A DNA stretch of 64,000 nucleotides, from positions 10,069 to 74,068 of the forward strand of contig JAJDDW010000014.1 in assembly GCA_029260115.1 (NCBI GenBank), given 5' to 3'. Both the position numbers and the translations under genes were made by a program. The notes beneath the pieces are model-generated. The model searched no databases. It saw only the letters and a program-made list of their open reading frames with translations, and was not told where the DNA came from. Positions 45,753-62,657 of the stretch are shown piece by piece (the stretch's first letter is position 1; each line of letters opens with the position of its first letter). Source of the stretch: Phycisphaerae bacterium (GTDB taxonomy: Bacteria > Planctomycetota > Phycisphaerae > UBA1845).

Positions 45753-47770
45753 CGCTTCGCCGCCTTCGCTTTAGCTTTAGTTTTAGTTTTCTTGATAGCC
45801 GGCTTTTTTCGCTTGACCACAGGGCGACGCGTAACAGGAATCTCGATACGTTCCTCACCGCGCAGATATTTACCCGTAAGAGATGTTTTCGACCGCATAA
45901 TCGTTTGCAGGTTTCCGTGAGCCATAACCTTCCCACCGCGCACGCCTGGACCAGGGCCAAAATCCACGATTTCGTCGGCGAGCCTCATCGTCTGCTCGTC
46001 GTGCTCTACCACGATAACCGTATTACCCATGTCACGGAGCTGGCACAGCGATTTCAACAGTCGATCATTATCTCGTGCATGTAGGCCAATACTTGGCTCA
46101 TCTAAAATATAAAGCACACCCACCAAACCCGCGCCAATCTGTGAAGCTAGGCGGATACGCTGCGACTCACCACCGGAAAGCGTCGGAGCCGTGCGTTCCA
46201 GCGTGAGATATTCTAACCCCACGTCACAAAGAAAACCCAACCGGCCTACAACTTCCTTCAACGCTTCCACGGCTATGAACTGCTGCGTTTGACTAAGCTT
46301 GAGTTTACTGAAAAATTCCCGGACATCGTTGATTGCTAAGCCCGACACTTCGTTGATATTAAGCCCGCCAAGTCGCACGGCTAAAGCCTGCGTATTCAGT
46401 CGCCCGCCTTGGCAATCAGGACACTGCCGACGCTGCATGTATTTTTCGTAATACGCGCGAACCATACTAGATTTAGCTTTGCGATGTTTATCTCGCAGGT
46501 CCGCGATGATACCATCAAACGTCGCGCCATGACGCCAGACCCCGCCTGACCAACGCCATTCAAAAGCAATATGTGTTTCACCTAGCCCATGAAGCAACGC
46601 ATCTTTCGCTTTTTGAGGAAGCTTAACCCACGGCGTCTTGAGATCGAAGCCGACATGCGCGGCTACACCTCGATATATATGGCGACGCCATCGACCGATT
46701 CTGGTTCGCATGGGTTGTATCGCGAGTTTCAAGAAAGATTTCTTCGGGTCGGGCACAAGCAATTCGGGATCAAAGTCAAACGTCTCCCCCATACCATCGC
46801 ACGTCGGACACATGCCCGACGGCGCGTTAAAACTCAGCAACTGCGGCGTCGGCGGCTCAAAACTCAGATTACACTTCGTACATGCATAATGAGATGACAA
46901 CAATATGTCGCTATCGGCATCTTTTGCAGATACGCGCTTAGATCGCTTGACTGTTTTAGTTTTCCCTTGGACAGCCTTGTCGATCAAGCTCGAAGCCACA
47001 GACTTGGACGAGTCCACGATTTGAACGATCAACGTACCATCACCCATCTTCAACGCCGCTTCAACAGCCTCCGCCAGTCGCGGACGCAGCGTAGCCGTCA
47101 TAACAAGTCGATCAATCACAACCTCAATATAGTGTCTGATATGACGGGCTAGCTTGGGCGCATCTGTGAGCGACACAACTTCGCCATCAACCCGCGCTCG
47201 CGCGTATCCCTGCCGAATCATATCTTCAAAAAGGTCTTTATATTCACCCTTCTGCCCTCTAATAACCGGCGCCAGGATCAGAAATTTGGTTTGCTTGGGG
47301 ATCGCCAAAATACGCGCGATTATTTGCTCACGACTCTGAGCAGAAATAACTTGCCCGCAGCCAGGGCAATGCTGCGTCCCCACCCGAGCGAAAAGCACGC
47401 GCAGATAATCATTAATCTGCGTGATCGTACCGACCGTACTACGCGGGTTCCAGCCGGAGGACTTTTGCTGAATCGAAATCGCAGGACTAAGCCCCGTGAT
47501 CTGATCGACGTCCGGCTTGGGCAATTGCCCCAGAAACTGCCGCGCGTAAGAACTCAGCGATTCGAGATAGCGGCGTTGACCTTCGGCGAAGAGTGTATCG
47601 AATGCGAAACTGCTTTTGCCGCTACCCGATACACCGGTCAGGCAGATCAGCTGGCCGCGTGGTAGCTTGAGCGAAACATTGCGAAGATTGTGCTCCCGAG
47701 CACCCTTAACTGTAATCGTTTTCGGTTCCATGCGATTAGCATTGGCTAGCCCAAAAATGCCACGCGACAA
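45749..47770 (-). CDS. uvrA: UvrA N-terminal ABC module (signature domain I with UvrB-binding and insertion domains), separate ORF
   Basis: 673 aa aligning to E. coli UvrA 1-605 (ITVKGAREHNLRNVSL…TGVSGSGKSSFAFDTLFAEGQRRYLESLSSYARQF…LSGGESQRIRLASQIGAGLVGVLYILDEPSIGLHARDN). It ends in a Lys-rich tail. Its stop overlaps the next ORF's ATG (ATGA at 45749-45752). Confidence 0.88.
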   Translation of the reverse strand: MSRGIFGLANANRMEPKTITVKGAREHNLRNVSLKLPRGQLICLTGVSGSGKSSFAFDTLFAEGQRRYLESLSSYARQFLGQLPKPDVDQITGLSPAISIQQKSSGWNPRSTVGTITQINDYLRVLFARVGTQHCPGCGQVISAQSREQIIARILAIPKQTKFLILAPVIRGQKGEYKDLFEDMIRQGYARARVDGEVVSLTDAPKLARHIRHYIEVVIDRLVMTATLRPRLAEAVEAALKMGDGTLIVQIVDSSKSVASSLIDKAVQGKTKTVKRSKRVSAKDADSDILLSSHYACTKCNLSFEPPTPQLLSFNAPSGMCPTCDGMGETFDFDPELLVPDPKKSFLKLAIQPMRTRIGRWRRHIYRGVAAHVGFDLKTPWVKLPQKAKDALLHGLGETHIAFEWRWSGGVWRHGATFDGIIADLRDKHRKAKSSMVRAYYEKYMQRRQCPDCQGGRLNTQALAVRLGGLNINEVSGLAINDVREFFSKLKLSQTQQFIAVEALKEVVGRLGFLCDVGLEYLTLERTAPTLSGGESQRIRLASQIGAGLVGVLYILDEPSIGLHARDNDRLLKSLCQLRDMGNTVIVVEHDEQTMRLADEIVDFGPGPGVRGGKVMAHGNLQTIMRSKTSLTGKYLRGEERIEIPVTRRPVVKRKKPAIKKTKTKAKAKAAKR

Positions 47771-50353: not shown

Positions 50354-50920
50354 CTAACGGCGCACAACCACCACCGCCACCGCTTTACGCAATCGAACCT
50401 GCATAAGAACTGAAGCCGCGACCATTATCGACAAGGTAAATACCACTAGCCCCCAAGTAGAAACCGTCGGAACGGGAGGCGGCGTCTCTAACTGCCCTGT
50501 CGGTAGCGGAGTGCCAGCGCCAAGGCACGGATCCGTCCCTGTAGGCCCAACCCGACCCGGACTATAACCCACCTCACCGGGCAGATCACTACGGACAGCC
50601 GTGATCTCCATACCATTAGGCGCGCCGTCGCCATCTGAATCTACGCCATCTAGCGAATCAAGCGCCTGCTCTATCGTCATCGTGGCCAGCGCAGCGATGA
50701 TATCTTCCCGGTAGCAGTTACCTAGATCAGATTTAGTAGGCGAATGGTGACATACCCCACAATTCTCGCCAATCGGACTCGCAGTCATCCGCGCTGGCAG
50801 CGTCGACGATGGATACTTTGCTTCAAACGCCGTGAGATACTGCGGAAACGCATTAGCCTGACTACAAAAATATCCTGTCACCACGGCGCAAACTAACACC
50901 TGTGCAGTTAATCTCATCAT
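50354..50920 (-). CDS. Small secreted protein with single CxxCH heme-binding motif, Ca-binding-like DSDGDG, and IPTL-CTERM-type C-terminal sorting signal
   Basis: Signal peptide (MMRLTAQVLVCAVVTGYFCSQANA), ENCGVCHH and DGVDSDGDGAPNG. The C-terminus is PTVSTWGLVVFTLSIMVAASVLMQVRLRK, i.e. P-T-x-S-x-W-G-L, a hydrophobic stretch, then basic residues. Confidence 0.65.
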   Translation of the reverse strand: MMRLTAQVLVCAVVTGYFCSQANAFPQYLTAFEAKYPSSTLPARMTASPIGENCGVCHHSPTKSDLGNCYREDIIAALATMTIEQALDSLDGVDSDGDGAPNGMEITAVRSDLPGEVGYSPGRVGPTGTDPCLGAGTPLPTGQLETPPPVPTVSTWGLVVFTLSIMVAASVLMQVRLRKAVAVVVVRR

Positions 50921-51853
50921 ACTTCTCCCATCCTCTAAAAAAACGCTTCCACTCCTCCAAGAACCATGCCTGCTATCCGACATGAAGTCGATCGTGATGA
51001 AATCCCCCCTCGACGACTACCGGACAAACGCCGGGCTAGCATTTTCGCAAATTTCAGGCCATTTGCCAAGGAAAATCTAAGATACTGCACCCCAAATTCG
51101 ACTAACTGAAGCACAAGTTAAAGCAAGACACTATTATCGGCCAAACTTTTCTTACGCGACGCGAGTTAACCAATTGAGTTAGTGTGCAGAATGCGCGCAC
51201 AAATACATATTTTTCTCGAGTTGGACCTGTTAGTGGCTTGAATTTTCAACAAAAAAAACGCCCGAGAGGCACTGGCCGATCTCCCCCTACGATGTAAATC
51301 CGTAGCAACCAGTCACCTCTCGAAACGTTTCGTTGATGATGGATCAGCCGTCAGTAACCGCCGCCATTCATCCGCAAAACTAACCCCGGCCGAGCAAGGA
51401 GGGGTCGTTCTACCGAACAAATAGCTAGCCATCCACCAACAGACCTCAGCCATCAACGGATACATTCCGCACACCTGAAAATGTCATGCACTTGATAAAT
51501 TATTTTGGATCAAAGCTGAAAAAACGAGCAGTACGGGCAAACTATTGTTCCCGCAGGAAGGAATTGGGCTGGTGGCCCAAGTCCTTCTTTTTGGACCTGG
51601 GAGAGTCGATGACTCGTCAACTATAATTGCCAGGCCAATTTGGGCATATCGGCTGGGTGGCATGCCCAAGCTGAAAGCGCGGGCATGGAATGTGCGTCCT
51701 CAAGCGGACTGATCGCTCCGTTCCCACCCTGACAGAGATCACCGGCGACGTTCTTTATATAGAGACCAGCATCGGGTGGTGGCCAGGAGGGTTGGATTCG
51801 GTGATAATTCCAGTAAGATTTGACGAGGGAAATGGGGTCTCAGCGAGCAGAGA

Positions 51854-52441
51854 ATGAGGAGCAACATGAATCGACGAAGAAATATAGAAAAGCTGGCATG
51901 CATGGTTGCCGTGTTGGCCATCACCACTAGCGCTTCAGCGCAAGTGCCTTGGTTGGAATTCGCGGGTACTAATTGCGATTTAATCAATGCCGCAAATGCC
52001 GAACTTGTCGTGCTAGAGAGTACGCAGAACATGGTCATTGTGAGCGGCCCGGACGTGACCCTCTCCGACCTTGTTGTCACCGGAGCGAGCGACATCTTTC
52101 TTAACAACGGCGTCGAACTGGTTCCCGTCGGGTTCATTAGTTTGGAAGTAGACGGTAGCGGTAACGAAACGCTGTGGTGGGTCTCGCTCACTGGTAACGT
52201 CGTCAACGTCGACGGATTCACCGGCGAGCCGACCGAAACGAATAAGATTCCTACAGACTTTATCGCTGCGCCGTGTGACGCTTGCGATTTTTGGGATGAT
52301 CCCACCGTGTGCGAAATTCCATCCGAGGTCGACCCACCGGCTGTCACTATCCAAGTTTGCGGGTCAAGCGTGACAGTCGGTATGATCGCGTCGATGATTG
52401 GTATGAATATCATGGGATTAGTTAGCCGTCGCCGCTGGTAG
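51854..52441 (+). CDS. Secreted protein with C-terminal hydrophobic anchor ending RRRW
   Basis: Signal peptide (…MVAVLAITTSASAQV), an acidic beta-rich body, and C-terminus TVGMIASMIGMNIMGLVSRRRW. The opposite-strand ORF 51739-52413 is S/T-rich antisense noise. Confidence 0.55.
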   Translation: MRSNMNRRRNIEKLACMVAVLAITTSASAQVPWLEFAGTNCDLINAANAELVVLESTQNMVIVSGPDVTLSDLVVTGASDIFLNNGVELVPVGFISLEVDGSGNETLWWVSLTGNVVNVDGFTGEPTETNKIPTDFIAAPCDACDFWDDPTVCEIPSEVDPPAVTIQVCGSSVTVGMIASMIGMNIMGLVSRRRW

Positions 52442-52539: not shown

Positions 52540-53667
52540 ATGGCCAACGTGAGCAACCGAATTCAAGCACTGTACGACATCGGGCAGTCCATCTGGTGCG
52601 ACAACATCAGCCGAAACATGATCGACGGCGGTGAACTCAAACGCCTGCTAGACATCGGCGTCGTCGGCGTGACATCAAACCCCTCGATTTTCATGAAGGC
52701 CATTACCGGTAGCGCAGATTACGACATGCTCCTGGACAAACTCATTGGCCAAGGCCTGGATACCATGGACCTTTATGAAGGATTGGTCATCCCCGACATT
52801 GGCGATGCGGCTGACATTCTCAAACCAATTTACGAATCAACCGGCGGCGTGGACGGATTCGTCAGCCTCGAAGTCAGCCCTAAGTTAGCCTACGATACCA
52901 AGGGTACTATCGCAGAAGGAAAGCGACTGTTCGCCACTCTCAATCGCCCCAATGTCATGATCAAAGTGCCCGCAACAGCGCAAGGTATGCCAGCGATCGA
53001 AGCGCTCATCGGCGCGGGGATCAATGTAAACGTGACGCTAATTTTTGGCCTAGCGGCATACGAACAGGTCATGCAGGCATACCTCAACGGCCTAAGAAAG
53101 CTCGACGCAGATGGCGGCGACCTCACCGCGGTCACATCGGTGGCCTCATTTTTCGTGAGCCGGTTAGATGTGATGATCGATAAAGCGTTGGACGAGAAAA
53201 AAGCTGGCGGCGCAGTTGTTGACCATCTTTTCGGTCGAGCAGCCATCGCCAACGCCAAGCTTGCTTACGCACGCTTTCAGGAAGTTTTTAGCGCAGACGG
53301 CGCGTTCGGGGCATTAGCCGCGAAAGGCGCTCGCGTGCAACGGCCTTTGTGGGCGAGCACGAGCACGAAAAATCCGGCGTATTGCGATACCATGTATCTT
53401 GACGGATTGGTTGGTCCGCAGAGTGTCAACACGCTGCCACCCGTTACGATTGATGCCACATTAGATCATGGCCAAACTGAGATAGCGATCACGAAAGACC
53501 TGGACAAAGCGCGATCGCAAATGAAGGAATTAGCTGGACTTCAAATCGACGTAACAAAGGCCACCGAAAAACTTCGTGATGACGGCGTGGCCTTGTTCGC
53601 TAAATCATTCGACGAACTGCTCGAAAATTTGCAGCACAAAAAAGCCCAGCTTCGGACAGCGGGATAG
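52540..53667 (+). CDS. tal: Transaldolase (long actinobacterial/mycobacterial type)
   Basis: IWCDNISR…GVTSNPSIF…IKVPAT, the family signature including the Schiff-base Lys. Confidence 0.88.
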   Translation: MANVSNRIQALYDIGQSIWCDNISRNMIDGGELKRLLDIGVVGVTSNPSIFMKAITGSADYDMLLDKLIGQGLDTMDLYEGLVIPDIGDAADILKPIYESTGGVDGFVSLEVSPKLAYDTKGTIAEGKRLFATLNRPNVMIKVPATAQGMPAIEALIGAGINVNVTLIFGLAAYEQVMQAYLNGLRKLDADGGDLTAVTSVASFFVSRLDVMIDKALDEKKAGGAVVDHLFGRAAIANAKLAYARFQEVFSADGAFGALAAKGARVQRPLWASTSTKNPAYCDTMYLDGLVGPQSVNTLPPVTIDATLDHGQTEIAITKDLDKARSQMKELAGLQIDVTKATEKLRDDGVALFAKSFDELLENLQHKKAQLRTAG

Positions 53668-53679
53668 CACGCACGCTAG

Positions 53680-56600
53680 CTAACTTCTAGCGTTAACGGA
53701 TGCGCGTTTGGCTTCTTCGAGCAGTTGTTTAATTTTCGCCTTACGAGCCGCCTGATCAGCACCTATCATGGTGACAGTTTCTACTGGCGCTTGTTTTTCG
53801 GCGAGTAAGTCGTAGCCCTGGTCAGGTGTCAGCTTGGCTTCAGGACCATTGAACGCCGGAATCTGTCGCGCCGCGTGTGTCACACCATGAATAGGATGCG
53901 TTTGGCTGATCGGCGGCACGCTTTGCAAGGTATGCTCAAGACGCTGCTGAGCGCGATTGGTTTCCTGTACCCATTCGCTTAGCGTCTGCGACGATCGAGA
54001 CGATTCATGGCGCACTTGTTCGATGGCCTGCTTGGCAGTGCTTTGAAGACTTCCCAGACCAGACTTCGTGATTGATTGGATTCTCTCAGACACCTGTATG
54101 GTCGTGTTTTTTAGCTTTGCCATGTCAGTCTGAGCTTCAGTTCTGGACTCGTTGAATTGTTTGATTTGTTCCTGAGCGTCCAGGCTAGATTTCGATAACG
54201 CGGAGAACACTTTGCGGACGGCTGTACATACTTGTTCCAGTTGGGCAGCGTGTTCTTTTGCGCCAGCTACGATTTCGCCAGGCTGGGCTAACGCCTCTGC
54301 GACGTTGGCTTGTAACTGGGCAGACTTCCTCGTGGCTACGCGTAGCTGCTTTTCGATGTCGATCGTTTGCTTGGTAAACTCGTTTATCATTTGCATACCA
54401 GCATCTGTCGTGTCAGCCATGGCTGATAGGTGCTGTTGAAGTTCCTGGGTTGAGGTTGTCGTTTCGAGCTGCAACTGTTCGTGTGTTTCGATTATACAAC
54501 CAGCCGACTTGATGAGCGTGTCCAAGCTTGTGATCTGCTGGTTGGCTGTCCCTGATATCGTAGTGAGGTTTTCGTAAGTTTCTTTAGCGTCAACCAATTC
54601 CTCTCGCGTAGATTTGGCGACGGCCTGCGCTTTGCTAAGCACCTTGGCAATGGTGTTTACCTGATCCGTTAATTTTTCGTAGGCTTCGCTGCGCAGTGCG
54701 ACATCATCTACATGCTGACCGATTTGGTCATCGAAGTCTTTTATATTCTCAGCGGTTGTCGTCTGTTGAACATCTTTGGGTTGGGGCGTTACTATTTGAG
54801 CCTGAGCGTAAGTATCCGACACCATCTTGGACGTTGCTTCGGCCTTTGCGGAGAGGTCCCAAACGTCCTGAATCATGCGATCAATTTTCGCGGTCGTCTC
54901 TTCGGCTAGCTGCTGAGCATTGGCGGAGGCTTTTTCAACCTGCTGCATGACGGACTGCCCGTCTACATTGACTTGTGTCAATTTCTTGAGCAGGCTCGAA
55001 GCTGCGGCGTGATGCGATTGCAATCTACCCGCTTTTTCATCGGCCGCGGCTATGGCAGGTTGTAATAGTTCAACGGCTTTGTCAGCCTTGTTTACTAATC
55101 GCTGAAGGCTATCGGTTTGCCCATCGCGTTCACTGAGCATGTGCCCAAGCTTGGTAGACATTTTTTCAACGTGTAATATTTTTTCGTCAGCCGTGGCTAT
55201 GGCAGGCTGTAGCAATCCAACTGTTTTATCCGCTTTGTTGATGAGACTCTGAATGCTTTCACGATGTCCATTTTGACCGCAAAGCATATGCTCAATATTG
55301 GTAGATACTTTTTCTGCGTGCGAGGCTTTTTCGCTTAATGAATTCAATCGTTCGCATGCGCCACCAACTTCCAATAAAGAATTAGAGATGCTTCTTTGCA
55401 AAGATTCAACGCGTCCACAGGCGTTATTAACATCGGTTGTCATGGCTCGCCCACTGTCCACTGCCGAGGATAATCTGGCGAGGGTTTCTTGTGGTTGGCG
55501 CTGTAATTCGACAACTGTAGACTGCAAATCTTGGACCATAGCCTTGGTCGCGTTTGCTCGTGAACAGAGATCTTCAATTTGTGCGTCCAACTCAACCTGT
55601 TGTCCAACCAGCGAATTATGCTTCTTTTCTTGGTCAACATGCTGTAGTGTTAGCTGCGCCAATTGTTTTTTTGTCGTATGCATCACAATCGTCGCATTGT
55701 CCTGCAACTTACTTACTTCTTGTCTTGTTTGTGCCGCCTTGACTTCAATCGTCTCAACAAACTCTTTCGAGACGGTGTCTACGTTATGCCGGAAGGCTTC
55801 TTCTTTGATTACCGTGATTTTTTCTACGTCTCGGGTAGCGTCAGCGCGCGTCTTGGCCCATGCGCCTTGCATGGCTGCTACAAACTCGCTGGTCATTTGC
55901 TTCGTCGCTTCTCGCTGCTCGTCGAGCGCATCTTTGGTAAGTTTCGAGAGGCTAGATTTGAATCCTACGATCGATTCGTTCACTACTTCGCTAAGCGTCT
56001 TGGCTAGCTGGTTTTTTTCTTTTTCGATCACCATGGCGTATTGACGCTGCGCATCTTCGCTCACGTGGCTAATCTGCTGGGAGGCGAGTTCTGCGGCATC
56101 ATGGCTGGCGCGATGGCTCTCTTTCAATTCCTTACGCGCTTGTTCTAAACGGCCTTGGATGGCTTGCGAAGCTTGACGCTGTGCATCTTCGCTCACATGG
56201 CTAATCTGCTTACGCACGAGTTCTGCGGCGTCATGGCTAGCACGCTGGCTTTCTTTTAACTCCTTGCGCACTTGATCCAAACCTTCTTGAATGGCTTGCG
56301 ATGTTTGCTGAGATTGTTCGATTATATCTGTGGCTTGTTGAGCGGTGTTGTGGATGTTTTCGCGGCAAGCATCGGCGTCGGTCATGGCTGTCATGAGTAG
56401 GGAGATGCGTTGTTGCACAGAATCGGCTCGTTCGACGAGGGTTTCGGCGAAAGCGGACAGTTGGGCCTCGACTTTTACGGCTCGATCGCAGGTATTTTCG
56501 ATGCGATGCAGCTGGGGCTGAACTTCGTTCGCAGCGCCACCGATGCGCATGGATTCATTTTCGAGTTCGCCCAGTTGATCTTGAACCTCAACCACGATCG

Positions 56601-57696
56601 ATTTTGCACGGTGTTCTAGCTTCGTCGTCGTTTGTTCGGCATGGCGCAGTGTTTGTTCCAGCTTGGTGATAAGCGTTCGCGCCCGCTCTGACATATTTGT
56701 AGCGTCGTCGCCTTGGTCGTTTGATGCTGCGACATTGATGTCGTCACCCTTCATAGCTTGGATAGTTGAATCGACGCGTGAGACTAGTTTCGACATCAGC
56801 GCATCCTCCTGAACGGCACAAACAATGGACTTACTCGGTTGAGATTTCTGGCTTTGATTGGCTGACATTTCGCGTACGAGTTCTGCGGTGACAGACGACT
56901 GACCTGCGCTATAGGCAGCGACCATGCTGGCATCCGCGAGCCGGTTAATAAGTCGAGGTATGCCGTGGGTTATTATATGAACTACAGCAATCGCAGCGGG
57001 ATCGAAAATTTCTTTGTCACCCGCCCCGGCTATGCGCAGACGATGTGCGATGTATTCCTGAGTCTGCGCGGAGGTAAATTTGTGTAATCTAAGCTCGGAA
57101 GCAAGCTGCTGACGCAGTCGATCGAATCGCGGTTGACCTAGCATATCAATCGTTCGTGGCTGACCGACGAGCAGCATGGTTAATAGGCGATTGTCATCTC
57201 GACCTAAATCGATGAGTGATTCTAATGTAGACATTGCCTCGATGGAGAGATTTTCGGCTTGGTCTACAATGAGAACGGGGAGCCTATCTTGACGGCGCGC
57301 GTCTTCGAGTCGACGGCGCAGCCTAGCTAGTCCTCGCTTGGCGTTATATTGCGTTGGCAACGTGACACCAAAACCCTTGCAGGTTTCACGTATGATATCC
57401 ATTTGTCCATCTACCGGGCATTTCACGACGATGGCCGGGTCTTGTGGGTCTAGCTTGGTGAGTAGCGATCTTATCAGGAGCGTTTTACCGGTCCCCGATT
57501 CTCCCACGACAAAACCCAGGCCTTGACGGTAGCGAAGCTCACATTCCATAGACGCGAGCACTTCTTCTATGTCAGGATTGGTGAAAAGGAACTCTAGCTG
57601 AATCCGATCTTCAAACGGCATACAGCGTAGCCCAAAGAATTTTTCATACATGTTTATCGTCTCCGCGCTTACGGACTGATCCCTGTCATGATGCAC
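53680..57696 (-). CDS. Giant cytoplasmic protein: N-terminal ExeA/GspA-like AAA ATPase (AAA_22) + ~1000-aa coiled coil with internal repeats
   Basis: N-terminal ~290 aa: FGLRCMPFE…GFVVGESGTGKTLLIRSL (Walker A), LPVLIVDQAENL (Walker B), QEYIAHRL. The remainder is heptad-rich Q/A/E/K sequence carrying two in-frame tandem duplications. Confidence 0.8.
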   Translation of the reverse strand: MHHDRDQSVSAETINMYEKFFGLRCMPFEDRIQLEFLFTNPDIEEVLASMECELRYRQGLGFVVGESGTGKTLLIRSLLTKLDPQDPAIVVKCPVDGQMDIIRETCKGFGVTLPTQYNAKRGLARLRRRLEDARRQDRLPVLIVDQAENLSIEAMSTLESLIDLGRDDNRLLTMLLVGQPRTIDMLGQPRFDRLRQQLASELRLHKFTSAQTQEYIAHRLRIAGAGDKEIFDPAAIAVVHIITHGIPRLINRLADASMVAAYSAGQSSVTAELVREMSANQSQKSQPSKSIVCAVQEDALMSKLVSRVDSTIQAMKGDDINVAASNDQGDDATNMSERARTLITKLEQTLRHAEQTTTKLEHRAKSIVVEVQDQLGELENESMRIGGAANEVQPQLHRIENTCDRAVKVEAQLSAFAETLVERADSVQQRISLLMTAMTDADACRENIHNTAQQATDIIEQSQQTSQAIQEGLDQVRKELKESQRASHDAAELVRKQISHVSEDAQRQASQAIQGRLEQARKELKESHRASHDAAELASQQISHVSEDAQRQYAMVIEKEKNQLAKTLSEVVNESIVGFKSSLSKLTKDALDEQREATKQMTSEFVAAMQGAWAKTRADATRDVEKITVIKEEAFRHNVDTVSKEFVETIEVKAAQTRQEVSKLQDNATIVMHTTKKQLAQLTLQHVDQEKKHNSLVGQQVELDAQIEDLCSRANATKAMVQDLQSTVVELQRQPQETLARLSSAVDSGRAMTTDVNNACGRVESLQRSISNSLLEVGGACERLNSLSEKASHAEKVSTNIEHMLCGQNGHRESIQSLINKADKTVGLLQPAIATADEKILHVEKMSTKLGHMLSERDGQTDSLQRLVNKADKAVELLQPAIAAADEKAGRLQSHHAAASSLLKKLTQVNVDGQSVMQQVEKASANAQQLAEETTAKIDRMIQDVWDLSAKAEATSKMVSDTYAQAQIVTPQPKDVQQTTTAENIKDFDDQIGQHVDDVALRSEAYEKLTDQVNTIAKVLSKAQAVAKSTREELVDAKETYENLTTISGTANQQITSLDTLIKSAGCIIETHEQLQLETTTSTQELQQHLSAMADTTDAGMQMINEFTKQTIDIEKQLRVATRKSAQLQANVAEALAQPGEIVAGAKEHAAQLEQVCTAVRKVFSALSKSSLDAQEQIKQFNESRTEAQTDMAKLKNTTIQVSERIQSITKSGLGSLQSTAKQAIEQVRHESSRSSQTLSEWVQETNRAQQRLEHTLQSVPPISQTHPIHGVTHAARQIPAFNGPEAKLTPDQGYDLLAEKQAPVETVTMIGADQAARKAKIKQLLEEAKRASVNARS
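55035..55330 (-). repeat. In-frame tandem duplication (~147 bp x2) inside the giant coiled-coil gene
   Basis: DNA repeat catcggccgcggctatggcaggttgtaatag… versus cgtcagccgtggctatggcaggctgtagcaatcc…. Protein repeat …NKADKTVGLLQPAIATADEK… versus …NKADKAVELLQPAIAAADEK…. Confidence 0.75.
56040..56305 (-). repeat. In-frame tandem duplication (132 bp x2) inside the giant coiled-coil gene
   Basis: ttgacgctgcgcatcttcgctcacgtggctaatctgctg… recurs 132 bp later as ttgacgctgtgcatcttcgctcacatggctaatctgct…. Protein repeat SQAIQEGLDQVRKELKESQRASHDAAELVRKQISHVSEDAQRQ versus SQAIQGRLEQARKELKESHRASHDAAELASQQISHVSEDAQRQ. Confidence 0.85.
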
Positions 57697-57889
57697 CTAT
57701 CACAGCTTGCAAGCTGAACTTGGTGCGCGCAACGTAGACGTTTTCCATCTACGTCCTAAATAAACATCGGATGACGAAAGGTAGGCCTGAAGTTATCGGA
57801 TCATTTGAATGAGGCAGTCATTGCAAGGGCCGTGAGAAGCAGTCTGATCATACTGAAAACGTGGGTTTGATCGGTGATCCTGGCGCGTA

Positions 57890-59830
57890 TTACGCTTTTT
57901 CGTCTAGGTGTGGTTCATGCCCGTTATTATCTGGGTCTTGGTTTGCATCATCTTCTACCGCCGTGTCCTTGGGCATGACCACGACAGTTCGTGCGAGAAG
58001 GTCGCCGAGCCTTTGCCGGCTGGGCGTCACCATAACGAGGAGGGCAACAGGCGGGAAATAAAACTCGATGGGCCTAACTAAGTTTCGGATGAGGATGACT
58101 AAGAAACTGCCAGGCTCGCCCATATCGGAGACTACGGATAGGCCTACGATTCGCTTGCCAGGTGTCGCGGCATTGATAGATTCAAAAATGAAGCAATATA
58201 GGCCAAAGATCGCCCCGATGATCGCCCTAAGCCAAAACAGTAATTCGTTGGGTGATATGGACTCTCCGGTTGCGAGCCGTTCAAAAACTGATCGCCCGGC
58301 TCTTGCTGCGAATAGTTGTTGATACATTAGCGTCCCCCAAATCGGAAACAGTATCGACATATCAATCAAAAAAGCGGCTAAGCGATGGGAAAACGGGGCT
58401 AGCTGCTGGTTTTTCTTAATGGATGCCACGAGCGTGACGCTTTCGCGGCGGCGCAAAAACACGACGGTGAGGATGCCACCCAATATCCCGTACTGGATTA
58501 AGATGCGTACGCGAGATTCGGGGCCGGTTAGTCTGGAAGATTGAAGTGATTGAACCGTTTTCATTGGCCCTACAGGTCGGCCTGAATCTAATGACCAGCG
58601 ACCTACGCTAACGACATGTTCGGCGTCTTGCGTGGCTACGGCAATGTCTGATGCAAAAAAAGATACCGCGACGGGACGCGCGAAATGTCGCACCCGTCCT
58701 TCACTATCTGCTAACACCTTAGATAAGGACCATGCGCCATCTTGAAGGCGATGTATCGAAATATCTACAGCGTTATTTTTTTCCAGACTCGCTACTACAA
58801 CGGGAGACGTATGAGCCAACGACAAAATCGCGCACTCCAAGGGAGCGTCAAAGGAAATAGTCGTTGGCTCAGACCAGGCTGCGGATTTTTTTTTAGATTC
58901 TTTATGACGAAACGTGTTGGGTGCGGACGGGTCTTCGTAGACTAGATGTACCGCCCCACCATACCCGGCTATGGCTGATACAATCGTCCCGAGCGAAAGG
59001 TCTTGGGGCGCGTTACGATCCACATACCACTGCCCGTCTTCGTAACGAATGATGGCACAATCCGTAGTAATTTCTGGCGGCGAAGTGGTTTTTTCTCGCG
59101 GATTTTTTTCTCCGAAATTATAGTCAATGGCTTCGATTTCATCTATGGCTTTGGCTTCAAGCGCTACCTTTAGAATGTCCAAAGCTTGCCGGGCTGTCAC
59201 GACGGCGTAGATAACAGATCGCTCGTGGTCCGAGCCAATGGCAAGGGGCACTACGTTTCCGGGGATGTTACGCTCGGCTGCGCGTAATGGTTTAGCCGTG
59301 GGCAATCTCGAAAAAACCTGGGCATTATACCGCCAATGTGTGCCGTCCCGATAGGTTGCGTACAGGGCAGTCCCGCGTAACGCGGCCTTGGCGATTGCGC
59401 CTCTTAGGCCTTGGATGTGTGGTCGGAAATAACCACCACTTTCTATATCTCTCAGTAGCCAAAACGAAAAATGTAGATGTAAAGCGCCAGCCTGGTCAGG
59501 CCTACGCTGGAATACCCAAAGGACTTCATCGTTGCCGAAGAGTCCTAGCGGATGGACTTCGGCGGCTTTGGCTGACGGCGCGGGAATTGCGATTAGTAAA
59601 AGTAAAAGCGTGATGGTTACAATGCGCGAGATTGAAAAACCGTTTCGCTTTTCAAGTCGTGATTGAGGGTCGTAACATCCAGTATTCTGAATGCGGTTTT
59701 CATCGGCTGAGCTCCTCAACGAATCTGCGGACCTCAGTGGTTGATGCGAATATAGCTTTCCAAGACCGCGCGGGTTGAAACCCGCATCTCGTAATGCGGG
59801 ATTGGCTTTTACTGTTATGTTGCCTGCCAT
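57890..59830 (-). CDS. Membrane protein with ~420-aa periplasmic domain and C-terminal RDD-family domain
   Basis: Signal/TM segment (IVTITLLLLLIAIPAPSAKA), a large extracytoplasmic domain, a second TM helix, then an RDD-like C-terminus (FSHRLAAFLIDMSILF…RQRLGDLLARTVVV). The Met at 59830 is chosen to avoid a 112-nt overlap with the upstream gene. Confidence 0.65.
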   Translation of the reverse strand: MAGNITVKANPALRDAGFNPRGLGKLYSHQPLRSADSLRSSADENRIQNTGCYDPQSRLEKRNGFSISRIVTITLLLLLIAIPAPSAKAAEVHPLGLFGNDEVLWVFQRRPDQAGALHLHFSFWLLRDIESGGYFRPHIQGLRGAIAKAALRGTALYATYRDGTHWRYNAQVFSRLPTAKPLRAAERNIPGNVVPLAIGSDHERSVIYAVVTARQALDILKVALEAKAIDEIEAIDYNFGEKNPREKTTSPPEITTDCAIIRYEDGQWYVDRNAPQDLSLGTIVSAIAGYGGAVHLVYEDPSAPNTFRHKESKKKSAAWSEPTTISFDAPLECAILSLAHTSPVVVASLEKNNAVDISIHRLQDGAWSLSKVLADSEGRVRHFARPVAVSFFASDIAVATQDAEHVVSVGRWSLDSGRPVGPMKTVQSLQSSRLTGPESRVRILIQYGILGGILTVVFLRRRESVTLVASIKKNQQLAPFSHRLAAFLIDMSILFPIWGTLMYQQLFAARAGRSVFERLATGESISPNELLFWLRAIIGAIFGLYCFIFESINAATPGKRIVGLSVVSDMGEPGSFLVILIRNLVRPIEFYFPPVALLVMVTPSRQRLGDLLARTVVVMPKDTAVEDDANQDPDNNGHEPHLDEKA

Positions 59831-59868
59831 AGTGCTGAGGCGACCTTTCTGGCTACTCGGTTCGCGAT

Positions 59869-60720
59869 TTAGGAATCGCATGCTGCGGGCGTTACGAACT
59901 GAGGACTCGTTGGCGTTACTTCGTTGAACTGCTTCCACTGATTTATATGAAATTGTAGACGAGCCTGTGCTCTTGGCCACACCGCCTCCAAGGCGTAAGG
60001 GAGCCAGCAGCCTTTGCCTTCTAGGCGCTGATATTTTGATAAAGTTGATTCCATTTCAACTCGGCCATCTTTATCACGAAAGATTACTTTGCGAACCAAA
60101 TAGGGCGCACGCCGATCGATCCAATATTCTTTTTTGATGATGGGTACACTGTTAGTGCCGCCGCTAATAAATAGAATTTGCTGGTAGTCATCCACGATGC
60201 GCTGCATGCATGGGCTATTCGGTGACAACCCTGCGCCGGGTGGTAATACGGTCAGCCCTAGTGCCTCGATGAGCTGCGACGGGGAGATTGGCGCTTCAAG
60301 CGGAAGATCGCCCTCCTGGCCATGCTGTCCGCAGGAGAATGCTCCCTCTTCTTGGCTGTCGATCCAAAAATGCGTATCGTTTGAGCCTACCAACATCATG
60401 CGGCTACCGAGCTTTTTCATATCGAAACGCAGGAACGAAGGCGCGAGATAGAAAAGTGTTCCGTCTACATGGTAGTTTCGCAACTTACCTTCTTGTGTGG
60501 TAAAATACCCATCGACCACTCCGCGCGCACGCATGGTATTGTCGATGACGGCGGCATTGGCGTTGATGATCGTGGCGACCTCAAAAAGAGGCCGAGGCGG
60601 GGCTGGCGCGAGTGAGACTATTGGTTGAGAAGGGCAGCCGACGATCAATAAAGCCAGGCCGCTTAGTAGGATGCGGTTAATAGGAATTTTGATGCCCATT
60701 GGATTAAAAAGTCTGCTCAC
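59869..60720 (-). CDS. Hypothetical lipoprotein (LolA/DUF4292-like beta-barrel candidate)
   Basis: 283 aa. Signal peptide plus lipobox LLIVGC. Confidence 0.55.
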   Translation of the reverse strand: MSRLFNPMGIKIPINRILLSGLALLIVGCPSQPIVSLAPAPPRPLFEVATIINANAAVIDNTMRARGVVDGYFTTQEGKLRNYHVDGTLFYLAPSFLRFDMKKLGSRMMLVGSNDTHFWIDSQEEGAFSCGQHGQEGDLPLEAPISPSQLIEALGLTVLPPGAGLSPNSPCMQRIVDDYQQILFISGGTNSVPIIKKEYWIDRRAPYLVRKVIFRDKDGRVEMESTLSKYQRLEGKGCWLPYALEAVWPRAQARLQFHINQWKQFNEVTPTSPQFVTPAACDS

Positions 60721-61420
60721 CCGTTGTGTCCGTTTCCGAATCGATCGCGTCTGTTGCGTCAGCTTGCGCTTCGTTGGTCGCCTCCGAAGTCGTTTCGTCT
60801 GAAATCACTTGATCCAAACTCGATGTGTCCGAGCTGGCTTCGTCCATGTTGGCTTGGTCTAGAGCGGCTACGTATTCTCCCATATCCCCGTGAAGGATAG
60901 CGGTTAGCTGCTGACTCACGCCTTCAATTTGGTCATCTGTCAGGTGTGGATTGAGCACTTGGTGGACGGTTTGGTCTTTGATTAGTGTCATGGTCCATAA
61001 TTCTCGATCGTCAACGTCGGCTGAGCTGTCGTAGCGTAGCTTTCTTTTACGCATAAGAATCAGCGCGAGGACAAAACGAAACTGCAGGCGGACTTCAATT
61101 TGTTCGTCCGCTAATCTAGTGAAAAAATCTGAAAGTAGGTCGTCGTTTACGAGAAGCTTTTGTTTCTTAGCTTTGACTGCGACCTGTGCTTTGTAATGGC
61201 AATAGGCCCCCTCAGGAGGCCCTTTCCAGGCCTGAACGCTATAGTCTGCTCGGCGGAAGGACTCTCCGTCCTCGATGAGAACGGTGTGGAACACTTCGCC
61301 TTCGTCGAGCTTGCGCCCGGTTTCCACACATACACCGCTGGAATGTTCAACCTGATATTGTTGCTGAGCCATAGACATTTCGTTTTCCGCGCGGCTAGAG
61401 TTACATGACAGAACCGACAA
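60704..61420 (-). CDS. Hypothetical protein with acidic S/T/D/E-rich C-terminal tail; first gene of the minus-strand operon
   Basis: 238-aa ORF with a 17-nt overlap with the downstream lipoprotein gene. The C-terminus DEASSDTSSLDQVISDETTSEATNEAQADATDAIDSETDTTGEQTF is disordered and acidic. The start may be the internal Met at about 61378. Confidence 0.45.
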   Translation of the reverse strand: MSVLSCNSSRAENEMSMAQQQYQVEHSSGVCVETGRKLDEGEVFHTVLIEDGESFRRADYSVQAWKGPPEGAYCHYKAQVAVKAKKQKLLVNDDLLSDFFTRLADEQIEVRLQFRFVLALILMRKRKLRYDSSADVDDRELWTMTLIKDQTVHQVLNPHLTDDQIEGVSQQLTAILHGDMGEYVAALDQANMDEASSDTSSLDQVISDETTSEATNEAQADATDAIDSETDTTGEQTF

Positions 61421-61658
61421 AGTCAGTTCACTGTTTACATTGGAGAGACAGGGCTGCGATTCGTCAACCCATGCCGAGGCTGGCGGGGATTGTTACAGGA
61501 AAACACGATTGAATTGGGCTGTGAATTCGGCCGCAGGCGTTGCATCTAGATGGTGACGTGTTATGCTGTAAGTTGTTTATATCAGTTGTAGCTCGCTACG
61601 CGCTTATGCAGTTAGGTCAACGAGGATTGGACCTCGGATTCCCGCACGGAGGCGAAGA

Positions 61659-62657
61659 ATGGCCAGACGTCGCAGACGAAAATCTCGATCGGGACTGACG
61701 TTGGTCGTCCTATTAGCGACCGCAGTTGGTGCTTGGTATTGGCTGTATCGTGTTGATGGCCAAGAAAACGTAATCGACAGCCCGCTTGTTCTCGCCCCTC
61801 AGCCCACACTTTCCACGAATCGTCCATCCAGAATGGAAATCAGTAGGCCCCAGCCTGAGGTGACGGAAAAAGGTGGGGTAACCCCGGCCGCAACGCCGGC
61901 AATGACCACGCCTCAGCGGACGCAGGCGCTCATCAATGCCGGCAAGCAGGCGCTGGCTAGCAAAGACTTGATCGCAGCCCGGACGCATTTTAGCGAAGCC
62001 CTGTCGCTTGGCGTTGGTGATGAAGACGAGAAGTTTTTGCGGGGCGAGCTGTCGCGATTGGGCAACGATACTATATTCTCGCCGCGCATTATTGATGGCG
62101 ATCCGCACGTTGGCCGGTATATCATTAAGACGGGTGATACGCTGGGTAAAATCGCGGGGCAATTCCAAGTTTCAGACGATCTGCTGGCCACGATTAACGG
62201 CATTAGAAATAAAAATCTCATTCGCGTGGGTCAAGCACTAAAAGTTGTGCATGGCCCATTTCATGCGGTGGTCAATAAGAAAACCTTCACGTTGGACCTT
62301 TTTGTAGGCTCAACTTTTACTAGGCAATATCGCATCGGTCTTGGCGAAGACGGCAGCACGCCTACTGGCGAGTGGCAGGTCGGCACGAAGCTAAAAAACC
62401 CGCAGTATTATCCGCCGCGCGGGGGGGACATTATCGCAGCGGATGACCCTGCGAATCCGCTTGGCGAACGGTGGATTGGGTTGATCGGCATTAGCGGAGA
62501 CGCGATGGGCCAACGTCGCTACGGCGTTCATGGCACCATTGAGCAAGACTCCATCGGCCGCAATGCATCGCTGGGATGTATTCGCATGTACAATAAGGAT
62601 GTCGAGCAACTATACGACTGCTTGGTATCGAAGCATTCTACTGTGACAGTGGAATGA
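61659..62657 (+). CDS. L,D-transpeptidase (YkuD domain) with LysM peptidoglycan-binding domain
   Basis: N-terminal TM helix, LysM (YIIKTGDTLGKIAGQFQVSDDLLATINGI…VGQALKV), and a YkuD catalytic motif HGT…SIGRNASLGCIRM. Confidence 0.85.
   Translation: MARRRRRKSRSGLTLVVLLATAVGAWYWLYRVDGQENVIDSPLVLAPQPTLSTNRPSRMEISRPQPEVTEKGGVTPAATPAMTTPQRTQALINAGKQALASKDLIAARTHFSEALSLGVGDEDEKFLRGELSRLGNDTIFSPRIIDGDPHVGRYIIKTGDTLGKIAGQFQVSDDLLATINGIRNKNLIRVGQALKVVHGPFHAVVNKKTFTLDLFVGSTFTRQYRIGLGEDGSTPTGEWQVGTKLKNPQYYPPRGGDIIAADDPANPLGERWIGLIGISGDAMGQRRYGVHGTIEQDSIGRNASLGCIRMYNKDVEQLYDCLVSKHSTVTVE

What the first reader, a model, noticed from the sequence alone, without database searches (positions are those of the whole stretch)
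53680..61420. Minus-strand operon: acidic protein - lipoprotein - periplasmic-domain RDD protein - giant ExeA-like AAA ATPase with ~1000-aa coiled coil
Four co-directional genes have overlaps or short gaps (61420-60704, 60720-59869, 59830-57890, 57696-53680). The last encodes a 1338-aa protein whose first ~290 aa are an ExeA/GspA-type AAA_22 ATPase, the family that partners with peptidoglycan-interacting secretin-assembly factors in type II secretion. Here the ATPase has no TM or periplasmic part. It is fused instead to an enormous Q/A/E-rich coiled coil. Together with a lipoprotein and an RDD membrane protein, this suggests an envelope-spanning scaffold or motor of unknown function. That is potentially relevant to Planctomycete cell biology, for example FtsZ-independent division or envelope organisation.
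Basis: partly seen in the sequence, partly recalled or inferred. Interest (0 to 1): 0.65.

Follow-up and report, generated by a model that had tools for sequence, protein, structure and literature searches.

The report
Giant coiled-coil ATPase beside LolB locus
In Phycisphaerae (Planctomycetota), a conserved gene pair (an uncharacterised acidic protein and a LolB-like outer-membrane lipoprotein) often sits next to a separately promoted 1,323-residue ExeA-like ATP-binding protein with a ~1,000-residue coiled coil; this is probably a cytoplasmic scaffold, and its cellular role is unknown.

Summary
The four minus-strand genes are real and the domain calls hold. The last protein has an ExeA-type AAA_22 head, no transmembrane segment and a ~1,050-aa heptad-periodic tail.

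The "four-gene operon / envelope-spanning motor" reading is only partly supported.
- The invariant core across 342 species genomes, nearly all labelled Phycisphaerae or Planctomycetota, is the acidic protein plus the lipoprotein.
- Of 63 informative loci, the RDD protein follows in 46%, the giant ATPase in 35%, and both in 14%.
- 17 of 26 ATPase genes lie next to the core; 9 are unlinked.
- Every ATPase gene, linked or not, carries its own conserved bipartite DNA element (TGCCCGATAAsTTCAG-N17-CGATG) 77-341 nt upstream. The element was found nowhere else in 1.48 Mb. The acidic gene has a different promoter (TTGACG-N17-TCCAAT). These look like two transcription units.
- The ATPase clade has Walker B DQAE in place of DEAQ, so the catalytic Glu is replaced by Gln. 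This favours an ATP-binding switch or scaffold over a motor.
- The acidic protein has no detectable fold relatives.

This is an undescribed, clade-wide family, moderately interesting; its function is inferred, not shown.

The parts
61439..61467 (-). P1: promoter-like element TTGACG-N17-TCCAAT upstream of the acidic-protein gene
   Evidence: Sequence read. The pattern TTGAC-N16-19-[TC]CCAAT gives 35 hits in 1.48 Mb of loci plus window, and 29 of them lie less than 300 nt upstream of an acidic-protein gene.
60704..61372 (-). Acidic cytoplasmic protein: conserved ~165-aa two-domain core plus a disordered acidic tail. No family or fold relatives detected.
59869..60699 (-). LolB-like lipoprotein: lipobox LIVG-C, LolA/LolB half-barrel, hydrophobic tip on the β3-β4 hairpin
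57890..59830 (-). Membrane protein: signal/anchor segment, ~350-aa periplasmic domain of unknown fold, then a C-terminal RDD domain (start codon uncertain, up to 59980)
   Evidence: Pfam RDD 6.2e-16. Hydrophobic segments. The full length is conserved in 35 loci.
57725..57802 (-). P2: conserved cis-element specific to the ATPase gene. Box 1 (T)CCGATAACTTCAG at 57787-57799, box 2 TCCGATG at 57765-57771, box 3 TTGCGCGC at 57725-57732.
   Evidence: Found upstream of all 29 non-redundant ATPase genes. The bipartite regex gave 30 hits, all upstream of ATPase genes and none elsewhere in 1.48 Mb. There is 1 hit in the 64-kb window. 24 metagenome contigs have the ATPase gene 77-161 nt downstream. No conserved RNA structure.
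53680..57651 (-). Giant cytoplasmic ExeA-like P-loop protein with a segmented coiled-coil tail (1323 aa)
56860..57651 (-). ExeA-like AAA_22 head. Walker A GESGTGKT at 57481-57504; Walker B VLIVDQAEN at 57250-57276.
   Evidence: Pfam and NCBIfam. Walker B reads hhhhDQAE in P0001-P0053 and P0059, against DEAQ in the outgroup ExeA-like proteins. Counts across 182 proteins are.
53683..56826 (-). ~1,050-aa heptad-periodic coiled-coil tail with breaks
   Evidence: Heptad periodicity and shuffle controls. Conserved islands along the tail.
56038..56301 (-). Lineage-specific tandem duplication of a 44-aa coil segment (132-bp period, 82% matches)
   Evidence: Tandem Repeats Finder; amino-acid coordinates.
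53893..53985 (-). Conserved C-terminal motif 1: LxEWVEEAxRAQxRLExTLxxxPSIxxTHP
   Evidence: C-terminal alignment of 45 family members; conservation profile.
53701..53745 (-). Conserved C-terminal motif 2: RAEEIxxLIEEAKRA (terminal helix)
53644..53657 (-). Terminator-like hairpin plus T-run just after the ATPase stop codon
   Evidence: Consensus scan only. The total number of such sites in the region is not far above the number in shuffles.
61659..62657 (+). Divergent LysM-YkuD L,D-transpeptidase, a partly conserved neighbour
   Evidence: Pfam. A divergent homologue lies within 2.5 kb upstream of the acidic gene in 16 of 75 loci.

Best explanation
The region holds two adjacent but separately promoted units of an envelope-related neighbourhood seen here almost only in Phycisphaerae.

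Unit 1 runs from P1 (TTGACG-N17-TCCAAT). It encodes an acidic cytoplasmic protein with no known relatives, then, 4 nt downstream, a LolB-like lipoprotein. That lipoprotein most likely receives and inserts outer-membrane lipoproteins. In this lineage a membrane protein with a large periplasmic domain and an RDD domain follows.

Unit 2 runs from its own conserved element (CCGATAAsTTCAG-N17-CGATG). It encodes a soluble 1,323-aa protein. Its ExeA-type P-loop head has an intact Walker A, but the Walker B catalytic Glu is replaced by Gln.

Proposed mechanism for unit 2 (inferred):
- The head binds ATP and hydrolyses it slowly or not at all.
- The head therefore acts as a nucleotide-dependent association switch, not a motor.
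- The ~1,050-aa heptad-periodic tail pairs into a long, jointed rod of roughly 100-150 nm if fully extended.
- Conserved islands in the tail and two conserved C-terminal motifs dock partners.
- The protein thus works as a cytoplasmic scaffold or tether. Because it so often sits beside the LolB-like/RDD locus, it probably serves cell-envelope organisation.

Shown here: gene structure, domains, folds, motif substitutions, synteny statistics and the cis-elements. Inferred: ATP-switch behaviour, rod formation, partner docking and the envelope role.
For: - Domains: AAA_22 and TIGR03015-like head; no TM segment; heptad periodicity far above shuffles.
- Walker motifs: Walker A is intact. Walker B is DQAE in P0001-P0053 and P0059 and DEAQ in the outgroup. 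About 118 of 182 relatives have Gln at this position, and those have a median length near 1,280 aa.
- Family: 64 homologues of 735-1670 aa, those that carry a name labelled Phycisphaerae/Planctomycetota. 950 representatives at E <= 1e-30, and most of the top 150 exceed 1000 aa.
- Tail: conserved islands and C-terminal motifs imply specific contacts rather than a plain spacer.
- Synteny: the acidic-lipoprotein pair is present in 78 of 81 loci, and the other 3 are cut by the contig end. The ATPase lies downstream in 22 of 63 informative loci and RDD in 29 of 63. 17 of 26 ATPase genes with enough flanking DNA follow the core.
- Separate promoters: the P2 element is upstream of every ATPase gene and nowhere else. 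P1 is specific to the acidic gene. Spacers are 97 nt or more, usually 180-420 nt, before the ATPase, against a median of 8 nt between the acidic and lipoprotein genes.
Against: - There is no experimental or structural evidence for oligomerisation, rod geometry or localisation.
- A conserved Glu two residues after the Gln (DQAE) could act as a displaced catalytic base, so hydrolysis may be retained.
- 9 of 26 ATPase genes are unlinked to the core (L086, L089, L090, L130, L092, L110, L117, L125, L128). About two-thirds of core loci have no adjacent ATPase.
- The separate conserved promoter means co-regulation is not shown. The functional link therefore rests on recurrent adjacency alone.
- The LolB assignment rests on a predicted fold. 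No Pfam or NCBIfam LolB/LolA/DUF4292 model matches, and other LolA-fold lipoproteins have different roles.
- The tail could fold back into helical bundles rather than form an extended rod.
Confidence: 0.42

Rival explanations
1. The genes are neighbours by descent only. The acidic-protein/LolB-like(/RDD) operon and the giant ATPase are functionally independent, and the ATPase works in an unrelated cytoplasmic process.
For: - The ATPase has its own conserved cis-element, which is also present at unlinked copies.
- The core has a different promoter.
- Only 22 of 63 core loci have an adjacent ATPase.
- One MAG has the core and the ATPase on different contigs (L057 versus L086).
- Where the ATPase and RDD are absent, the downstream genes are unrelated housekeeping genes.
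Against: 17 of 26 ATPase genes still follow the core on the same strand. This holds even though head identity is down to about 40% and tail identity to about 25%. Such persistence is unusual for unrelated genes.
Confidence: 0.3
2. The protein is an active AAA-type mechanoenzyme, the first reader's 'motor'. The Glu of DQAE takes over as catalytic base, and ATP turnover drives remodelling or assembly of an envelope complex, as proposed for ExeA in secretin assembly.
For: - The Glu at position +3 of Walker B is conserved together with the Gln (QAEN 76, QAEH 18 of 182).
- Walker A is intact.
- The ExeA family is described as ATPases (my own knowledge of the ExeA literature).
Against: - Gln at the canonical catalytic position is the classical hydrolysis-blocking substitution.
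- There is no TM segment, peptidoglycan-binding domain or secretin/T2SS genes nearby.
- Known AAA+ motors do not carry a single head on a 1,000-aa coil.
Confidence: 0.13
3. It is a chromosome-organising, SMC-like system, with the acidic protein acting as a kleisin-like partner.
For: - The coil matches SMC and MukB-like JetC models weakly (TIGR02168 E = 2.9e-13; JetC E = 1e-4).
Against: - All SMC scores are far below cut-offs and cover only the coil (48.5 against 567 bits).
- The head is AAA_22, not an ABC type, and there is no hinge or C-terminal head half.
Confidence: 0.05
4. The ATPase is a motility or polarity factor expressed from a sigma-28 (FliA)-type promoter, for example a polar landmark for the flagellum.
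For: Box 1 contains CCGATAA, which resembles the sigma-28 -10 element GCCGATAA (my own knowledge). The box is invariant upstream of every ATPase gene.
Against: - There is no conserved TAAA-type -35 at the expected distance.
- The box 1 to box 2 spacing is fixed at 29 nt, which does not fit sigma-28 geometry.
- No flagellar genes are in the window.
- Box 2 is often part of an inverted repeat CCGAT-N6-ATCGG, which is more like an operator.
Confidence: 0.08

Closest known systems
ExeA/GspA, MshM and the TIGR03015 PEP-CTERM-associated ATPase (AAA_22, COG3267)
   Same: The ~270-aa N-terminal P-loop domain aligns end to end (TIGR03015 positions 1-264 of 269, E = 1.5e-48). It has the typical N-terminal 'FFGL...PF' lead-in, Walker A, and the VGQP motif.
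   Different: - There is no TM segment and no periplasmic peptidoglycan-binding domain.
- There is no T2SS, MSHA or exosortase context.
- Walker B is DQAE instead of DEAQ.
- A ~1,050-aa coiled coil with conserved C-terminal motifs follows the head.
- The score is below the family cut-off (165.6 against 324.5 bits).
Bacterial coiled-coil-rich scaffold proteins (Streptomyces Scy/FilP, crescentin, Myxococcus AglZ, cyanobacterial HmpF, SpiroCoCo)
   Same: It is a very long, heptad-periodic, low-proline tail with breaks. The tail gives weak coil-level matches to SpiroCoCo, DUF1664 and DUF948, and a homologue matches HmpF. Its size is similar to Scy (about 1,300 aa; my own knowledge).
   Different: It carries a nucleotide-binding ExeA-like head. 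It shares no sequence family with those proteins. Filament formation has not been tested.
SMC/MukB/JetC
   Same: A P-loop domain is combined with a very long coiled coil, and there are weak coil matches.
   Different: The head is AAA+/AAA_22, not a split ABC head. There is no hinge and no C-terminal head half. Scores are about a tenth of the cut-offs.
LolB (E. coli 1iwm; P. gingivalis LolB-PG 9tpm; F. johnsoniae LolB1/2). This comparison is for the lipoprotein.
   Different: No sequence-family match was found. It is larger (254-aa mature protein), as are the Bacteroidota LolB proteins. Its gene is tightly coupled to that of a cytoplasmic acidic protein. LolA binding has not been tested. lolB was reported as exclusive to Proteobacteria by sequence searches (PMC8871954).
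RDD family membrane proteins (PF06271)
   Same: The C-terminal RDD domain scores above the Pfam cut-off (59.4 against 24.1 bits).
   Different: It is preceded by a ~350-aa periplasmic domain with no family match. The function of the RDD family is itself unknown.

Membership tests
ExeA/GspA-type secretion ATPase | N-terminal AAA_22/COG3267 P-loop domain | tested here: met
   PF13401 E = 4.9e-22 (79 bits against a 27-bit cut-off). TIGR03015 aligns over 264 of 269 positions.
ExeA/GspA-type secretion ATPase | Canonical Walker B hhhhDEAQ with the catalytic Glu | tested here: not met
   The window has VLIVDQAEN. P0001-P0053 and P0059 have D-Q, while the outgroup ExeA-like proteins have D-E-A-Q.
ExeA/GspA-type secretion ATPase | TM segment and periplasmic peptidoglycan-binding domain | tested here: not met
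   The maximum Kyte-Doolittle 19-aa window is 1.13. No PG_binding or SPOR domain was found.
ExeA/GspA-type secretion ATPase | Genomic partnership with ExeB/GspB, a secretin or T2SS/MSHA genes | tested here: not met
   None were found among the window ORFs scanned or in the gene lists of related loci.
TIGR03015 XrtA/PEP-CTERM system-associated ATPase | Score at or above the curated cut-off (324.5 bits) | tested here: not met
   165.6 bits. No exosortase was seen among the window ORFs scanned.
SMC (TIGR02168/02169) | Split ABC head, hinge, and a score above the cut-off | tested here: not met
   48.5 and 27.9 bits against cut-offs of 567 and 729. The matches cover the coil only, and no SMC_N or hinge domain was found.
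Coiled-coil protein (structural class) | Sustained heptad a/d hydrophobic periodicity with low Pro/Gly | tested here: met
   Power at period 3.5 is 1.3-2.6 in 11 of 20 windows. 30% of windows pass the contrast threshold against 1.3% of shuffles. Pro is 1.3%. This used my own heuristic, not COILS or Marcoil.
LolB (outer-membrane lipoprotein insertase) | N-terminal lipobox with an invariant Cys | tested here: met
   The window has LIVG-C. G21 and C22 are conserved in at least 90% of 37 homologues.
LolB (outer-membrane lipoprotein insertase) | LolA/LolB unclosed β-barrel fold | tested here: met
LolB (outer-membrane lipoprotein insertase) | Hydrophobic residue at the tip of the β3-β4 loop (E. coli Leu68) | tested here: met
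   The hairpin between model strands E89-96 and E99-106 has the turn K-[K/S]-[L/F]-G. Position 97 is L in 25 and F in 12 of 37 sequences.
LolB (outer-membrane lipoprotein insertase) | Sequence-family membership (Pfam LolB/LolA/DUF4292, NCBIfam LolB) | tested here: not met
   No Pfam or NCBIfam hit at E <= 0.1.
LolB (outer-membrane lipoprotein insertase) | Accepts lipoproteins from LolA and inserts them into the outer membrane | not testable with these tools
   This needs binding or complementation assays.
RDD family (PF06271) | Pfam score above the gathering threshold | tested here: met
   59.4 bits against 24.1, aa 528-663.
Sigma-28 (FliA) promoter, considered for the P2 element | -10 GCCGATAA with a -35 TAAA 15 nt upstream | tested here: inconclusive
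   CCGATAA is invariant, but no conserved -35 is seen. The second box sits at a fixed 29 nt, which does not fit sigma-28 geometry.

The most novel reading that the evidence does not exclude
The acidic protein, the LolB-like lipoprotein, the RDD/periplasmic protein and the giant ExeA-like coiled-coil protein form one Phycisphaerae-specific trans-envelope system. An ATP-locked head nucleates a cytoskeletal rod or filament more than 100 nm long at the inner membrane. That rod positions outer-membrane lipoprotein insertion and peptidoglycan cross-linking. In these FtsZ-less bacteria it would act as a spatial organiser of envelope growth, polarity or division, switched on by a dedicated regulator that binds the CCGAT boxes.
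Probability: 0.1. Interest if true: 0.85.

Novelty: new variant of a known kind. Interest (0 to 1): 0.5.

Why it matters
- **Candidate cytoskeletal element.** Planctomycetota lack FtsZ, and how they organise envelope growth and division is unresolved (PMC5147048, PMC6952346). A clade-wide, very large, nucleotide-binding coiled-coil protein with its own conserved control element can be tested in Phycisphaerae as a cytoskeletal or scaffolding candidate.
- **A LolB-like lipoprotein outside its known phyla.** LolB was first thought restricted to Proteobacteria and was only recently found in Bacteroidota. A LolB-like lipoprotein conserved across Phycisphaerae extends it to a third phylum.
- **A partner protein with no known relatives.** The gene tightly coupled to the LolB-like gene encodes a well-predicted protein with no fold or family relatives.
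- **A natural test of the ExeA head.** The DEAQ-to-DQAE change is a natural experiment on how the ExeA-type P-loop is used.

Tried and rejected
- **PDB sequence searches.** The full ATPase, its head alone and the acidic-protein profile gave nothing useful.
- **Defence system.** PADLOC gave only coil-level JetC noise.
- **Structured RNA in the spacer.** Rfam found nothing and RNAalifold predicted zero pairs on 25 aligned elements. I therefore read the element as DNA-level.
- **Generic promoter and terminator scans.** Counts were no better than shuffles.
- **A divergent RDD or periplasmic gene in loci scored as 'no RDD / no ATPase'.** The downstream genes are unrelated: peptidases, AMMECR1, a response regulator, a glycosyltransferase and others.
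- **The uncalled 2-kb gap in L004.** It contains no convincing ORF.
- **Naming or placing distant family members.** Cluster look-up returned no names.
- **Literature.** Searches for ExeA, coiled-coil and Planctomycetes/Phycisphaerae found no description of this family.
- **SMC, MCP or kleisin readings.** Rejected on scores.
- **Self-BLAST for internal repeats.** It returned nothing. Tandem Repeats Finder found the 132-bp duplication.


Full report
**1. Observation**

The window has four co-directional minus-strand ORFs at the stated coordinates: 60704-61420, 59869-60720, 57890-59980 and 53680-57696. Homologues and database gene calls refine the starts.
- The acidic protein begins at MAQQQ (61372).
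- The lipoprotein begins at MGIK (60699), 4 nt after the acidic protein's TAA stop.
- The ATPase begins at MYEKFFG (57651), which is preceded by GGAG.
- The RDD protein's start is uncertain (59830, or up to 59980).

The first three genes are tightly packed. The fourth is separated by 238 nt.

**2. The giant protein**

- *Head.* Pfam gives AAA_22 (E = 4.9e-22, aa 56-185). NCBIfam's only specific match is TIGR03015, the ExeA-like PEP-CTERM-associated ATPase. It aligns over 264 of 269 positions (E = 1.5e-48) but scores 165.6 bits against a cut-off of 324.5.
- *No membrane part.* No 19-aa window is hydrophobic enough for a TM helix (maximum 1.13).
- *Tail.* Residues ~291-1338 are A/Q/E/L/S/T-rich with 1.3% Pro. 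Spectral power at period 3.5 dominates in most 98-aa windows. 30% of 28-aa windows show strong a/d contrast, against 1.3% in shuffles. These windows cover 707 of 1038 residues in ten segments. The tail is therefore a jointed coiled coil, not one uninterrupted 1,000-aa coil.
- *Not SMC.* Matches to SMC, JetC, SpiroCoCo, DUF1664 and DUF948 are weak and confined to the coil.
- *Duplication.* A 132-bp tandem duplication (56038-56301) has added one 44-aa coil unit in this lineage.

**3. The family**

- The word-indexed search found 64 relatives. Nearly all are 1,000-1,670 aa, and those that carry a name are labelled Phycisphaerae, Phycisphaerales or Planctomycetota MAGs.
- An exhaustive search with the head alone found 950 representatives at E <= 1e-30. 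Most of the best 150 are longer than 1,000 aa.
- The tail is homologous along its length: 25-28% identity over 94-99% coverage in many members.
- The tail contains conserved islands, for example QLErVCxAVRKVFxxLSxAxLeA. There are also two conserved C-terminal motifs, LxEWVEEAxRAQxRLExTLxxxPSIxxTHP and a terminal RAEEIxxLIEEAKRA helix.
- Walker A is intact, but Walker B reads hhhhDQAE in P0001-P0053 and P0059. The outgroup ExeA-like proteins read DEAQ. Across 182 proteins, about 118 carry Gln at the catalytic position, and those have a median length near 1,280 aa.
- Gln at this position is the classical substitution that allows nucleotide binding but blocks hydrolysis (established knowledge of Walker B mutants). 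The Glu two residues further on is co-conserved and could in principle compensate.

**4. The neighbours**

*RDD protein.* It has a signal or anchor segment, a ~350-aa periplasmic domain of unknown type and a C-terminal RDD domain.

**5. Synteny**

Using the acidic protein as a probe, 342 species-representative genomes encode it. Almost all are labelled Phycisphaerae or Planctomycetota, and they include a Phycisphaera mikurensis MAG and a Sedimentisphaerales genome.

Among the 81 non-redundant loci available at that stage, the lipoprotein gene follows immediately wherever DNA is available (median 8 nt to the first aligned residue). Among the 63 loci with at least 3 kb downstream:

| Downstream of the core pair | Loci |
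|---|---|
| RDD only | 20 |
| ATPase only | 13 |
| RDD and ATPase | 9 |
| Neither | 21 |

Where neither is present, the next genes are unrelated housekeeping genes.

Starting from the ATPase, 7 of 11 looked-up loci follow the core. L086, L089, L090 and L130 do not. Of 15 metagenome contigs with enough upstream DNA, 10 follow the core. That is 17 of 26 overall. One MAG carries the core and the ATPase on different contigs (L057 and L086). A divergent LysM-YkuD L,D-transpeptidase accompanies the core in 16 of 75 loci, including the window.

**6. Two promoters (the finding that changes the operon reading)**

The ATPase gene is always preceded by a spacer of 97 nt or more, usually 180-420 nt and occasionally several kb. 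In that spacer, all 29 non-redundant ATPase genes carry a fixed-geometry element:
- box 1, yTGCCCGATAAsTTCAG;
- box 2, yCCGATG, exactly 29 nt from the CGAT of box 1 to the CGAT of box 2;
- box 3, usually TGCGCGC, about 25 nt further on.

Evidence that the element is specific to this gene:
- The pattern CCGATAANTTNAG occurs once in the 64-kb window, at 57787-57799.
- It occurs once in each ATPase-bearing locus in which it was found, with a second copy in L020, and never in the 63 loci without a match.
- The bipartite regex gives 30 hits, all upstream of ATPase genes, and none elsewhere in 1.48 Mb on both strands.
- The element is also present at the unlinked genes (L086, L089, L090, L130).
- An exact scan of metagenome contigs returned 38 hits. 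In 24 the ATPase gene starts 77-161 nt downstream. Seven are too close to a contig end to judge. Seven have no ATPase gene downstream; six of these lie inside or antisense to unrelated ORFs in unrelated-looking DNA, consistent with chance.

The spacer between the boxes varies in sequence, and RNAalifold finds no conserved pairing. I therefore read the element as a promoter or operator, not an RNA. Box 1 resembles the sigma-28 -10 element, but the geometry does not fit. Box 2 is often half of an inverted repeat CCGAT-N6-ATCGG.

The acidic gene has a different conserved element, TTGACG-N17-TCCAAT (window 61439-61467). Of 35 occurrences in the data set, 29 lie upstream of acidic genes.

The simplest reading is two transcription units: P1 drives the acidic protein, the LolB-like protein and (here) RDD, and P2 drives the ATPase.

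**7. Mechanism (inferred)**

Unit 1 looks like an envelope-biogenesis operon. It centres on an outer-membrane lipoprotein receptor or insertase, plus a cytoplasmic partner of unknown role and, in some lineages, a periplasm-facing RDD membrane protein.

The ATPase is best read as a nucleotide-gated scaffold. ATP binding to an ExeA-type head with a disabled catalytic Glu would control head-to-head association. The jointed coiled coil would provide a long rod. The conserved islands and C-terminal motifs would provide docking sites.

Its recurrent position beside the LolB-like/RDD/L,D-transpeptidase neighbourhood suggests an envelope-related task. No direct link has been shown. The 'motor' and 'division' ideas have no support in the data.

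**8. Comparison and novelty**

- The head is ExeA-like. However, the protein fails three defining features of ExeA/GspA: the TM and peptidoglycan-binding part, the T2SS context and the canonical Walker B. It also falls below the TIGR03015 cut-off. I describe it as ExeA-related, not as a member.
- It resembles coiled-coil-rich scaffold proteins in its tail, but differs from them in having a nucleotide-binding head.
- I found no description of this family in the searchable literature.
- I rate the ATPase a new variant of a known kind.
- The LolB-like lipoprotein is a new member of a known kind in a new phylum.
- The acidic protein and the P2 element are uncharacterised.

**9. Limits**

- The coiled-coil call rests on my own periodicity heuristic with shuffle controls.
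- Whole genomes could not be scanned, so I cannot say whether genomes without an adjacent ATPase lack it altogether.
- The loci are the best 80 of 342 by similarity to the window, which biases the synteny fractions toward relatives of the window's lineage.

Noticed in passing
window 57725-57802 (-), and upstream of every ATPase gene in L001-L091, L130 and L092-L129: A conserved bipartite or tripartite DNA element (TGCCCGATAAsTTCAG-N17-CGATG...TGCGCGC) is specific to the giant-ATPase gene. Box 1 resembles a sigma-28 -10 element. Box 2 is often part of an inverted repeat CCGAT-N6-ATCGG. The regulator is unknown.
   Followed up: yes
window 61439-61467 (-): A conserved TTGACG-N17-TCCAAT promoter-like element lies upstream of the acidic-protein gene. 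29 of its 35 occurrences in 1.48 Mb are upstream of acidic-protein genes, so it is not simply the generic promoter of these genomes.
   Followed up: partly
window 60704-61372 (-): The acidic protein has four invariant potential metal ligands (C17, C60, H139, H163) spread over its two predicted domains. They could form an inter-domain zinc site.
   Followed up: no
window 50354-50983 (-) and 51854-52441 (+): Two small proteins have C-terminal sorting-signal-like tails. The first ends ...VPTVSTWGLVVFTLSIMVAASVLMQVRLRK, which resembles an IPTL-CTERM/PEP-CTERM signal, and also has a CGVCHH haem-like motif. The second ends with a hydrophobic stretch followed by RRRW. This is of note because the ATPase head's best curated match is the PEP-CTERM-associated ATPase. 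The adjacency is shared only with the close relative L003.
   Followed up: no
window 40641-45752 (-) and 45749-47770 (-): A 1,703-aa protein with UvrA-type domains is directly preceded, with overlap, by a 673-aa UvrA-like protein. This is an unusual tandem of UvrA paralogues.
   Followed up: no
window 61659-62657 (+): A LysM-YkuD L,D-transpeptidase is divergently transcribed from the acidic gene. The same arrangement occurs in 16 of 75 related loci, including a distant one (L088). This suggests a link between the LolB-like operon and peptidoglycan cross-linking or tethering.
   Followed up: partly
window 56038-56301 (-): A recent 132-bp (44-aa) tandem duplication lies inside the least conserved part of the coiled coil. 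A second, older ~47-aa duplication is at 55033-55320.
   Followed up: partly
L020 11333-11345 and 14978-14990: This locus has two copies of box 1. One lies right after the lipoprotein gene and one upstream of the ATPase gene 3.8 kb away, as if an insertion had split the usual arrangement.
   Followed up: no
L003 19250-23725: The closest sequenced relative carries a type II CRISPR-Cas locus (Cas9, Cas1, Cas2) about 5 kb beyond the transaldolase gene. It was not seen in the corresponding part of the window.
   Followed up: no
window 4865-6457 (-): A 530-aa FtsX-like permease (LolC/E- or MacB-like class) lies next to lysyl-tRNA synthetase. It could belong to the Lol ABC transporter of this organism. 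This was not examined.
   Followed up: no
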